In this document: positions 21,601 through 24,600 of the stretch, in pieces
Layout of the letters: every line of letters begins with the position of its first letter
How positions within the stretch are numbered: the stretch's first letter is position 1
NCBI RefSeq assembly: GCF_003334305.1
Contig: NZ_QOWS01000001.1
Length of the DNA stretch: 64,000 nt
Strand: one strand, 5' to 3'
DNA from: Escherichia coli
GTDB taxonomy: Bacteria; Pseudomonadota; Gammaproteobacteria; Enterobacterales; Enterobacteriaceae
Program-made: the position numbers

Positions 21601-24600
21601 ACAGCGAAGCGATTCGGGTAGTGCTGGCGATTATCGCCTTTGCCTCTATCATCTTCGGTAACCTGATGGCGCTGAGCCAGACCAATATCAAACGTCTGCT
21701 CGGTTACTCATCTATCTCTCACCTCGGCTATCTGCTGGTGGCGCTGATTGCGCTGCAAACGGGCGAGATGTCGATGGAAGCGGTAGGAGTTTACCTGGCC
21801 GGTTATCTGTTCAGCAGCCTCGGCGCGTTCGGCGTGGTCAGCCTGATGTCCAGCCCGTACCGTGGCCCGGATGCTGATTCCCTGTTCTCTTACCGCGGTC
21901 TGTTCTGGCATCGCCCGATCCTCGCGGCGGTGATGACGGTGATGATGCTGTCTCTGGCCGGTATTCCGATGACGCTGGGCTTTATTGGTAAGTTCTACGT
22001 GCTGGCGGTCGGTGTCCAGGCACACTTGTGGTGGCTGGTGGGCGCCGTGGTTGTCGGTTCGGCAATCGGCCTTTACTACTACCTGCGCGTGGCGGTGAGC
22101 CTGTACCTGCACGCCCCGGAACAACCGGGTCGCGATGCACCGTCAAACTGGCAGTACAGCGCAGGCGGTATCGTGGTGCTGATCTCTGCACTGTTGGTAC
22201 TGGTGCTGGGTGTATGGCCACAACCGCTGATTAGCATTGTGCGGTTAGCAATGCCGCTGATGTAAGCTATCAGTTTGTAAGTCAGAAAGCCGCCGACATG
22301 TTCGGCGGTTTTTTTTGGTGCCCTGACACCATCACCCAACAATAACCGTCAGCGCATGATTCCCTTGTCGCAGCATACGTCGATACGCGCTAATCAGCTT
22401 TTCCATATCAAGCATGATCGAAGCAAAGAGTTGCCCCTCTAACTCTTCTGAAAAGGTCACTCCCGGATAAATCTCCATTTCATTGAGTCGCTTAATGGAA
22501 AACTGTTTACGCAGCTCACTTCGATCCAGTGATTCCAGTCGGTCGATTGTCGCGGCTAACTCCTGATTCCAGGTCAATCCCAGGAAGCCATCTATGCCAT
22601 CTTCGAGGCTGTGTTCACCAAGCACGGCACGACTCAGCGGATCATTCTTCGCGGGATCAAAAGCAGAGGTGCCTGTCAGCCCAAAGTGTAAAAAATCCCA
22701 GCGTTTATCAATATCCAGTCGGCGTAATCCTGAAAGCGTGTCATGTATATTATCCATCAAAGGTTTTTCAGTAGACTCAAGCAGTTGGTTAATCTTTTCT
22801 GAGTCAATTTCTGCAAAATAACCAATCATTCCCATTTATTTTTCCTCCATTGAATTTTATGTTTCGCATCTTAAAACAGACGAGGGAAAATAAAATGTAC
22901 ATGTCGCTGTTTCTGGACCCGCCTCGAGAAATTTTTATTATTTACTGTTGTGTAACAAGGTTATAACACCATCTGAGCCATTTTCTGATAATTCAATCTG
23001 TCTGCTGTATCACCGGGCAAGTGGTATTGTTTATTACGATAAAAAGCGGTGTCAGTAATCATTACGGCGGGAATATCGTGTTGCCAATAATTCAGGTGGT
23101 CAGAGAAATCAATACCGGGAATAAACCATGGGGCATTCATAGAATAAACAGATAAATCCCGGGATGATAACAATGCCGTTTTTACCTGACGAACGGCGTT
23201 GATATCCTGTATTCTGCCGACCAGGCAATAAAGTCCCCCCGATCGGGATAAAGCCAGGACATTGCGGGTAAGGGTAATCCTGGCTACCAGGCGCAGAGTC
23301 GTAATAGCCAATCGGGGACGCCCTGCGCGGTAACTCTGGCACCGCTACTGACAAAGAACTCTTTTATATACTCTACGGACCTATTCAGATTATCAATATT
23401 GTCGGCATTACGTGGATGCACAGTTTGTGTAAGATAACGAACTGTTTTTTCTAATTGCTCAGGACTGACGTGTCGGGGCGTTGGCGATAATGCAGTGACC
23501 CAGGGTTGGTAAAAATAATCAGAGGGAGTGAAATCAGAAATAATATAACAAAAGGATTTTTTTTCATATATAAATTATCAATAAAAGACGTTATTTTATC
23601 ATTATTTATAATGAGTTATGAGTGTTTGTTTTATTACGGTTGTTAGATCTATACAAAAAGTATCTTTTACAGTGGCTTCGCTATTTTAAAAAGGAATTCA
23701 TATAAGGAAAAATATAATTATGTTATTTATTGGCAGATTGAGTTGACAGGGGGCAGAACTCTGAGGGTAAGAAAAGTCAGCAACAACAATCCACTACATC
23801 AACAGACCAGCAATCGCGTGCCGAGATACGCTGGAAATACCCGAAGATTGAACTGGCGGATGGTGTGACTGACATCAGTCAGTGATGACTTTTTAGCAAA
23901 CTATGTTCGACCAGTCAGCATATTTGCTGACTGGTCGAATTAATTAACTATGATGTTAACTTACTCTTTTGCCTGATGCTCTATTTTGGGGTTGTGAGTG
24001 TTTTATTTCTAAGTCTCTATAATAATCATTGATATTTGCATCGCCATATTTATCTAAATAACAATTTCTGTTTACCTGTCGATGTTGAAAATCAATTTCG
24101 TACTGCTCTTCTGCTGAATATTTTTTAAATCTGTCAGCATAGTTTTTTAATAACGTATAGGGGGCGCTGTCAGAATTGCTTTCCCTTTGTTCAATCACTT
24201 CCTGGGCTGCCATGCACACAAACGCACCGCAACTTTGGCTTAAGTATTGCTGAAGATCGGCATGTAAAAATATTATCTCTGGTTCATTTAAATGAACTTT
24301 TATATTATTATTCGACATTTCTCCCATGAGTTCAGAATTAAAACTATTAATGACACGCGTAAGTGAATTTTCTTTATCATGGCCTAGTGCACGCAATGAG
24401 TTGAATATGACGCATTTTATTTGTAGTTTATTATTTTTTTTATTTACTATTTTCTGTAGCGAAACTAATATCCAGTGTCCGCCAGTATTTATGGGGAATA
24501 ACTGGACTTCATTCGGTCATGATGGATCGCTCTTAATATTTTCATTGAGAGCGTCTTCCAGGTGAGTTCTGGTGGAGTAGGGGACGTAGAGACCAGTAGG

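What the first reader, a model, noticed from the sequence alone, without database searches (positions are those of the whole stretch)
23568..23885. Short plus-strand coding remnant where yfbK would lie
Between the yfbL start and the elaD 3' end there are only about 390 bp, with no ORF of 60 aa or more. The plus strand has a short open frame ending ...GKKSQQQQSTTSTDQQSRAEIRWKYPKIELADGVTDISQ at TGA 23883-23885, followed by a small hairpin and a T-run near 23870-23895. This may be the last codons and terminator of a deleted yfbK, which I recall as a 575-aa von Willebrand factor A-domain protein.
Basis: inference. Interest (0 to 1): 0.3.

Follow-up and report, generated by a model that had tools for sequence, protein, structure and literature searches.

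The report
Three-piece relic of deleted yfbK gene
This short stretch is the dead leftover of the E. coli gene yfbK, whose interior was removed by old in-frame deletions; about half of all completely sequenced E. coli carry the same scar, so it is an ordinary gene relic.

Summary
The window is E. coli, 100% identical to strain KSC9. Only 388 bp (23568-23955) separate the yfbL start from the elaD stop, there is no ORF of 60 aa or more, and a 47-codon open frame ends at TGA 23883-23885. The last 40 nt of that frame are identical to the last 40 nt of K-12 yfbK. However, the quoted peptide is a mosaic of three collinear, in-frame yfbK pieces. These are codons 1-44 (23702-23825, diverged, start ATG now ATA, lipobox frameshifted), codons 486-492 (23826-23846, IRWKYP) and codons 564-575 plus stop (23847-23885). 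The vWF_A, VWA and YfbK_C domains are all gone and no in-frame start codon remains, so it does not code. About 2580 of 5426 complete E. coli genomes carry this relic and about 2514 carry full yfbK. E. albertii has the full gene, so the relic is derived. Other strains have lost even the relic. A 16-bp hairpin at 23905-23940, shared with convergent elaD, is the likelier terminator. The one mildly unusual point is that the 5' block is only about 68-72% identical to the intact-gene haplotype, which suggests an old haplotype. Interest is low.

The parts
23568..23701 (.). Retained yfbL-yfbK divergent intergenic (promoter) region, of the deep 'relic' haplotype
   Evidence: It aligns to K-12 L002 5176-5312. 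Taken together with the yfbK 5' piece, this block is only 67-72% identical to intact-gene haplotypes and 75-94% identical among relic haplotypes.
23702..23825 (+). yfbK 5' piece, equivalent to codons 1-44. The start codon ATG is now ATA (23702-23704). The signal peptide (KNIIMLFIGRL) is in another frame, and the lipobox LSGC was destroyed by a 5-nt deletion. The Gln-rich linker EGKKSQQQQSTTSTDQQSRAE is in the yfbK stop-codon frame.
   Evidence: blastn aligns 23314-23823 to L002 4915-5442. tblastn matches codons 20-40 with E 4e-7 against the L008 allele, and codons 4-14 in frame 3.
23826..23846 (+). yfbK middle piece, codons 486-492 (IRWKYP + K/Q), lying between junction 1 (23825|23826) and junction 2 (about 23846|23847)
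   Evidence: There is a 15-nt exact match of 23829-23843 to yfbK nt 1459-1473, against a shuffle maximum of 13 in 2000 trials. Junction 1 is shared by all four relic alleles examined.
23847..23885 (+). yfbK 3' piece, codons 564-575 (IELADGVTDISQ) plus stop TGA 23883-23885
   Evidence: Window 23846-23885 matches yfbK nt 1689-1728 exactly over 40 nt. The blastn match continues to 25400 at 96.7%.
23868..23895 (+). Small 6-bp hairpin overlapping the stop codon, followed by a T5 run.
   Evidence: The pattern scan finds it. Its fold is -10.5 kcal/mol with z = -1.5, which is not exceptional.
23905..23940 (.). 16-bp perfect hairpin between the convergent yfbK relic and elaD. It is the likely bidirectional transcription stop or RNA 3'-end stabiliser.
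   Evidence: It folds at -29.1 kcal/mol on the plus strand and -28.1 on the minus strand, with z = -8.6 and -8.2. It is conserved in both intact-yfbK and relic alleles. In L004 the GACCAG/CTGGTC stretch of the stem is replaced by GGACAG/CTGTCC, which keeps that stretch paired, but the L004 hairpin as a whole is imperfect and weaker at -16.1 kcal/mol. The spacer is 98.6% conserved against 93-95% for the relic.
22938..23567 (-). Neighbour: yfbL pseudogene (M28 metallopeptidase), with a 326-bp internal deletion and frameshifts
   Evidence: PGAP annotates it as 'frameshifted' in the identical strain.
23956..25176 (-). Neighbour: elaD pseudogene (deubiquitinase) with an internal stop at codon 220
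   Evidence: PGAP annotates an 'internal stop', and the translation confirms it.

Best explanation
The segment is a non-coding relic of the lipoprotein gene yfbK, lying in its ancestral position between yfbL and elaD. An ancestral full-length gene lost codons 45-485 in one 1323-nt in-frame deletion, and all relic alleles share that junction. It then lost codons 493-563, 213 nt in all. One lineage (L004) shows only a 165-nt loss at a GCAGG microhomology, so the window type either lost a further 48 nt later or lost all 213 nt at once. What remains is the divergent promoter region, codons 1-44, 486-492 and 564-575, the stop codon and the downstream hairpin. The relic then drifted. In this strain the start codon is ATA, the lipobox cysteine is gone and the signal-peptide part is frameshifted, so no protein is made. 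Shown here: the homology and order of the pieces, the junctions, the disabling lesions, the population frequency, and presence of the gene in an outgroup. Inferred: the order and age of the deletions, and that the 16-bp hairpin still ends transcription for elaD or the relic.
For: Three collinear blocks match K-12 yfbK. The relic alleles of four lineages share junction 1 and differ at junction 2 and in their 5' lesions: ATG to ATA in the window, a 1-nt deletion giving TAA in L003, a 16-nt deletion in L005, and Cys loss plus a 1-nt deletion in L004. The deleted parts hold all the Pfam domains, namely vWF_A 102-199, VWA 216-383 and YfbK_C 393-568, and the relic frame has no Pfam hit. Full yfbK is present in E. 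albertii and in Escherichia sp. MOD1-EC7003 next to yfbL, so presence is ancestral. 2580 of 5426 complete E. coli genomes carry the relic form and 2514 carry at least 80% of yfbK. The relic is dispensable, because CUVET21-H2 and JNEC-KY203 have lost it entirely. The relic diverges about 6.5% between the window and L003 and about 5% between the window and L005. That is similar to or slightly more than the flanking genes, at 3-5%, as expected for drift. There is no Rfam family match at a meaningful score.
Against: All the deletions that define the window and L004 relics are multiples of three (1323, 213 or 165+48 nt). That is mildly unexpected for random loss, at 1/9 to 1/27, and could mean a shortened protein was made for a time. 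PGAP calls a 44-aa 'hypothetical protein' with a GTG start on the relic in strain Z0117EC0051. Transcription of the relic from the retained promoter region was not tested and cannot be excluded.
Confidence: 0.93

Rival explanations
1. The relic is still expressed as a short RNA. This would be a transcript of about 150-250 nt running from the retained yfbK promoter to the hairpin at 23905-23940, and it could have acquired a regulatory role.
For: The yfbL-yfbK intergenic region is retained and a very stable hairpin follows the relic. The hairpin spacer is better conserved than the relic itself, at 98.6% against 93-95%.
Against: No Rfam match was found. The promoter-like sites are no more frequent than in shuffles, 4 against 2.7 +/- 1.7. 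The relic body drifts at the neutral rate and carries lineage-specific indels. Whole-relic deletions exist. The hairpin's conservation is explained well enough by its role at the elaD 3' end.
Confidence: 0.05
2. The open frame encodes a functional micro-protein derived from YfbK, as PGAP's 44-aa hypothetical protein in some strains would suggest.
For: All the deletions kept the reading frame. PGAP annotates WP_254911077.1 on the L003 relic.
Against: In the window the frame has no usable start codon, and a TGA lies directly upstream at 23739-23741. The signal peptide and lipobox are out of frame or destroyed in every allele, each in a different way. There is no Pfam hit. The relic is absent in some strains.
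Confidence: 0.015
3. yfbK was never present here. On this view the K-12 type gained yfbK by insertion and this is the empty site.
For: Roughly half of E. coli genomes lack the gene, and the surrounding block looks island-like, since yfbL has close relatives only in Escherichia.
Against: An empty site would not contain the gene's 5' end, an internal 21-nt piece and its 3' end in order and in frame. E. albertii and another Escherichia species carry the full gene.
Confidence: 0.005

Closest known systems
E. coli K-12 yfbK (b2270), a 575-aa predicted vWA-domain lipoprotein
   Same: It occupies the same chromosomal position and strand, between divergent yfbL and convergent elaD. The relic keeps its codons 1-44 (diverged), 486-492 and 564-575, its stop codon and its downstream hairpin.
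   Different: 1536 of 1728 nt are missing, including all three Pfam domains. The start codon and lipobox are destroyed. The 5' block is only about 68-72% identical to K-12.
yfbK relic of strain 2013C-4282 (L004), annotated by PGAP as an incomplete pseudo-CDS
   Same: It has the same junction 1 (GCCGNN|ATACGCTGGAAAT), the same position and the same 3' end.
   Different: It keeps 48 more nucleotides (AKDEDLQGYSAEFFRL). Its junction 2 lies at a GCAGG microhomology. It is 20-23% diverged from the window relic over the intergenic region and the 5' piece, about 11% over the middle and 3' pieces, and its hairpin has compensatory changes.
Independent yfbK deletion in 'E. coli' SCPM-O-B-8794 (L010, a GTDB species representative)
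   Same: The interior of yfbK is lost while the 5' end (to about codon 43) and a 3' portion are kept.
   Different: The junction is different (codon about 43 joined to about 527) and out of frame. The start codon and lipobox are still intact. There is no elaD downstream.
Ordinary bacterial gene relics left by deletional decay (general knowledge of pseudogene erosion in enterobacteria)
   Same: There are internal deletions at short or no microhomology, followed by lineage-specific frameshifts and stops, in a block where the neighbours yfbL and elaD are also pseudogenes.
   Different: It is unusually widespread (about 47% of complete genomes) and sits on a deeply diverged haplotype rather than being a recent strain-specific lesion.

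Membership tests
YfbK family (vWF_A + VWA + YfbK_C lipoprotein) | Sequence homology to yfbK at the syntenic position | tested here: met
   Three collinear blocks match yfbK, including exact matches of 40 nt and 15 nt.
YfbK family (vWF_A + VWA + YfbK_C lipoprotein) | Intact ORF with start codon, signal peptide and lipobox cysteine | tested here: not met
   ATG is now ATA at 23702-23704. The signal-peptide part is in another frame and stops after 8 codons. The lipobox was removed by a 5-nt deletion.
YfbK family (vWF_A + VWA + YfbK_C lipoprotein) | vWF_A and VWA domains (K-12 residues 102-383) | tested here: not met
   Codons 45-485 are deleted, and the relic frame has no Pfam hit even at E<=10.
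YfbK family (vWF_A + VWA + YfbK_C lipoprotein) | YfbK_C domain (K-12 residues 393-568) | tested here: not met
   Only residues 486-492 and 564-568 of the domain survive.
Gene relic / pseudogene | Derived from a gene that is intact in relatives, with presence ancestral | tested here: met
   Full yfbK lies next to yfbL in E. albertii, in Escherichia sp. MOD1-EC7003 and in 2514 E. coli genomes.
Gene relic / pseudogene | Disabling lesions and no sign of constraint on the remaining frame | tested here: met
   Each lineage carries different 5' lesions. Divergence is equal to or greater than that of the flanking genes. The relic is lost entirely in L039 and L040. A formal dN/dS was not computed because the frame is too short.
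Intrinsic (Rho-independent) terminator | Stable GC-rich hairpin immediately followed by a U-tract | tested here: inconclusive
   The small hairpin at 23868-23883 has a T5 run, but it lies 6 nt away and the stem is weak, z = -1.5. The strong hairpin at 23905-23940 has A/T-rich flanks but no clean U-tract on either strand. Function would need Term-seq.

The most novel reading that the evidence does not exclude
The relic and the intact gene may be two ancient haplotypes kept side by side in E. coli at about 47% and 46%. The block from the yfbL 5' end to the yfbK 5' piece differs by about 30% between them. That is as much as either differs from E. albertii, while the flanks differ by only 3-5%. 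This could be a trans-species or introgressed presence/absence polymorphism of a surface-exposed vWA lipoprotein, maintained by balancing selection from, for example, phage or host pressure, rather than simple neutral decay. The run of in-frame deletions could mean the gene passed through a stage as a shortened lipoprotein.
Probability: 0.15. Interest if true: 0.4.

Novelty: new member of a known kind. Interest (0 to 1): 0.12.

Why it matters
It matters little on its own. It gives the correct annotation for a 388-bp 'empty' spacer that pipelines label inconsistently: as nothing, as a 44-aa hypothetical protein, or as a partial pseudo-CDS. It also shows that the nuoN-rbn interval is a hotspot of gene-content change, covering yfbNOP, yfbL, yfbK and elaD. 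The two roughly equally frequent, deeply diverged haplotypes make the locus a convenient marker for recombination and phylogroup studies, and a possible test case for presence/absence polymorphism of an uncharacterised vWA lipoprotein.

Tried and rejected
(1) An Rfam scan of 22800-24600 at E<=1 gave only a chance-level eukaryotic snoRNA hit (29 bits against a gathering score of 90), which I rejected.

(2) I tested the small hairpin as a terminator. The pattern scan finds it, but its stability is not distinguishable from shuffles.

(3) tblastn offers an alternative alignment in which 'SRAEIRWKYPKIELADG' matches the C-terminal 'YRAEF---IRLIELADG'. I rejected it. In the other relic alleles the residues are SRAA, which corresponds to (V)LAA at codons 41-44. 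The E is a window-specific GCG to GAG change. IRWKYP has a 15-nt exact match at codons 486-491.

(4) An exact-pattern scan of 100,044 species-representative genomes for the yfbK 3' end (GAACTGGCNGNTGGNGTGACTGACATC) found nothing. I therefore used a YfbL protein scan instead.

(5) The literature holds 29 papers that mention yfbK and 3 that mention it together with yfbL or elaD. None describes this natural deletion. One reports an in-vitro LldR binding peak inside K-12 yfbK, which is not relevant to the relic.

(6) I looked for a full-length yfbK allele whose 5' or intergenic sequence is of the relic type. None turned up among the alleles sampled (K-12, L006, L007, L008, L009, E. albertii). The L008 allele is closest in the Gln-rich coding part only.

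Full report
**What the window is.** The region is E. coli chromosome, 100% identical over 3.1 kb to strain KSC9 and many other strains. The gene order is nuoN (+, 20808-22265), yfbM (-, 22332-22835), a frameshifted yfbL pseudogene (-, 22938-23567), a 388-bp gap, an elaD pseudogene with an internal stop (-, 23956-25176), then rbn, elaA and elaB. In K-12-type genomes the 1728-nt gene yfbK (575 aa) sits on the plus strand exactly in this gap. It is divergent from yfbL and convergent with elaD.

**Checking the observation.**
- The gap has no ORF of 60 aa or more.
- The quoted frame is open for 47 codons (23742-23882) and ends at TGA 23883-23885.
- The frame has no ATG, GTG or TTG until six codons before the stop, and it is preceded by TGA 23739-23741.
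- The small hairpin (23868-23883) and T5 run (23891-23895) exist. The hairpin is no more stable than shuffled sequence, with z = -1.5.
- A 16-bp perfect hairpin lies just downstream at 23905-23940, at -29 kcal/mol on either strand with z about -8.5.

**What the segment is.** blastn against a K-12-type locus (L002) gives two blocks around the gap.
- Window 23314-23823 matches the yfbL 5' end, the intergenic region and the first 130 nt of yfbK, at 79.9%.
- Window 23846-25400 matches the last 40 nt of yfbK (exact), the spacer and elaD, at 96.7%.

The 22 nt between these blocks contain a 15-nt exact match (CGCTGGAAATACCCG, 23829-23843) to yfbK nt 1459-1473, which encode IRWKYP at residues 486-491. 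In 2000 shuffles of that stretch the longest match to the gene was 13 nt.

The relic therefore has three collinear pieces, all in the frame of the yfbK stop codon:
- codons 1-44 (23702-23825);
- codons 486-492 (23826-23846);
- codons 564-575 plus the stop (23847-23885).

tblastn recovers all three pieces. It also recovers the signal-peptide residues KNIIMLFIGRL, but in a different frame. In this strain the start codon is ATA, a 5-nt deletion removed the lipobox (LSGC in K-12), and the frame that starts at the internal ATG 23720 stops after 8 codons.

Pfam places vWF_A at residues 102-199, VWA at 216-383 and YfbK_C at 393-568 of the K-12 protein. All three are essentially deleted, and the 47-residue frame has no Pfam match. 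Rfam finds nothing meaningful.

**How it arose.** I compared relic alleles from four lineages: the window, L003, L004 and L005.
- All four share junction 1 (GCCGNN|ATACGCTGGAAAT). It corresponds to a 1323-nt deletion of codons 45-485 and is in frame.
- Junction 2 differs. L004 (strain 2013C-4282) retains 48 extra nucleotides (…AKDEDLQGYSAEFFRL…). Its junction joins Q492 to A548 at a GCAGG microhomology, a 165-nt in-frame loss.
- The window, L003 and L005 lack a further 48 nt, giving 213 nt in total, also in frame.
- The 5' ends are disabled differently in each lineage. The window has ATG changed to ATA plus indels. L003 has a 1-nt deletion that creates TAA. L005 has a 16-nt deletion. L004 has lost the cysteine and has a 1-nt deletion.

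This pattern suggests that the deletions came first and the 5' decay followed independently in each lineage. That order is an inference.

Between the window and L003 or L005 the relic differs by 5-6.5%. This is similar to or slightly more than the flanking genes at 3-5%, while the hairpin spacer is 98.6% conserved. That is what drift of a dead sequence next to a constrained 3'-end structure would give. In L004 the GACCAG/CTGGTC stretch of the hairpin stem is replaced by GGACAG/CTGTCC, a compensatory change, although the L004 hairpin is imperfect and weaker overall at -16.1 kcal/mol.

**Polarity and frequency.**
- A YfbL-anchored scan of 100,044 species-representative genomes returned three Escherichia loci.
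- E. albertii and Escherichia sp. MOD1-EC7003 carry full yfbK next to yfbL, so presence is ancestral and the relic is derived.
- The third locus, SCPM-O-B-8794, has an independent, out-of-frame yfbK deletion.
- Among 5426 complete E. coli genomes, 2580 hold the relic form, meaning one place covers at least 80% of 23400-24000. 2514 hold at least 80% of yfbK.
- The remainder include further decay. CUVET21-H2 has lost the relic and most of elaD. JNEC-KY203 has an IS1-flanked deletion of the yfbL 5' end, the relic and half of elaD. The relic is therefore dispensable.

**The one non-trivial point.** The block from the yfbL start codon through the yfbK 5' piece is only 67-72% identical between relic haplotypes and intact-gene haplotypes. 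Intact-gene haplotypes are 93-95% alike, and relic haplotypes are 75-94% alike. E. albertii is about 70% identical to both groups. The flanks (yfbM, most of yfbL, elaD) are 92-98% identical.

The relic therefore sits on an old haplotype. It is either an ancient polymorphism or an import from an unsampled Escherichia lineage. I could not distinguish these possibilities, and I found no full-length gene on the relic-type haplotype.

**Function.** The best-supported reading is that the segment does nothing as a gene. What may still work is the 16-bp hairpin, as a transcription stop or RNA 3'-end stabiliser for convergent elaD. In this strain elaD is itself a pseudogene, and so is yfbL, so the whole 2.3-kb block is decaying. 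A short relic transcript cannot be excluded without expression data.

**Comparison with the known, and novelty.** The segment is homologous to yfbK but fails every structural criterion for membership of the YfbK protein family: ORF, lipobox, vWA domains and YfbK_C domain. It meets the criteria for a gene relic. Annotation pipelines treat it inconsistently, as no feature, as a 44-aa hypothetical protein in L003, or as a partial pseudo-CDS in L004. No paper in the searchable library describes it. It is an undescribed but entirely ordinary example of a known kind.

**Verdict.** Interest is low, at about 0.12.

Noticed in passing
window 22938-23567 (minus strand): yfbL (M28 metallopeptidase) is a pseudogene here. 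It has a 326-bp internal deletion relative to K-12, with the junction at 23313|23314 and AAT microhomology, plus frameshifts. It is intact in other relic-carrying strains (L003, L005), so its decay came after the yfbK deletion.
   Followed up: partly
window 23956-25176 (minus strand), stop at 24517-24519: elaD (deubiquitinase) has an internal stop at codon 220, where the intact L003 allele has Trp. The K-12-like strain PD007 has a different internal stop at codon 333.
   Followed up: partly
window 22266-22331: yfbN, yfbO and yfbP (about 2.5 kb in K-12) are absent. Only 66 bp separate nuoN from yfbM, and they hold a GC-rich hairpin plus T8, probably the nuoN terminator. Other strains have an IS200/IS605 tnpA (L003), or a yfbN-like gene plus another ORF (L004), at this spot.
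   Followed up: partly
L008 3243-3364; L009, L010, L011 between yfbK and rbn: elaD is entirely absent in E. coli Ecol_448, Escherichia sp. MOD1-EC7003, SCPM-O-B-8794 and E. albertii, where yfbK directly abuts rbn. elaD is therefore itself a presence/absence polymorphism, possibly an insertion within E. coli. The Ecol_448 YfbK C-terminus is also diverged (…IGLAKDLDNSQN).
   Followed up: no
L010 about 5600-6000: There is an independent yfbK deletion in 'E. coli' SCPM-O-B-8794. Codon about 43 is joined out of frame to about codon 527, with the start codon and lipobox (LTGC) still intact. This is recurrent loss of the same gene.
   Followed up: partly
L012-L038: Among the 100,044 species representatives, close relatives of YfbL occur only in Escherichia (95%, 83% and 80% identity). 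The next best matches are 46-49% identical proteins in Opitutales, Nitrospirae and Thiothrix MAGs. This suggests that the yfbL/yfbK block was acquired horizontally by the Escherichia lineage. The E. coli species representative itself was not returned by either scan, and I have no explanation for that.
   Followed up: no
K-12 yfbK interior (deleted here): A gSELEX study lists an LldR binding peak at K-12 coordinate 2,383,166 in the elaD/yfbK/yfbL row of its table (PMC10272880). From my own recollection of K-12 gene coordinates, that position lies inside yfbK. If so, the site would be absent from relic-carrying strains.
   Followed up: no
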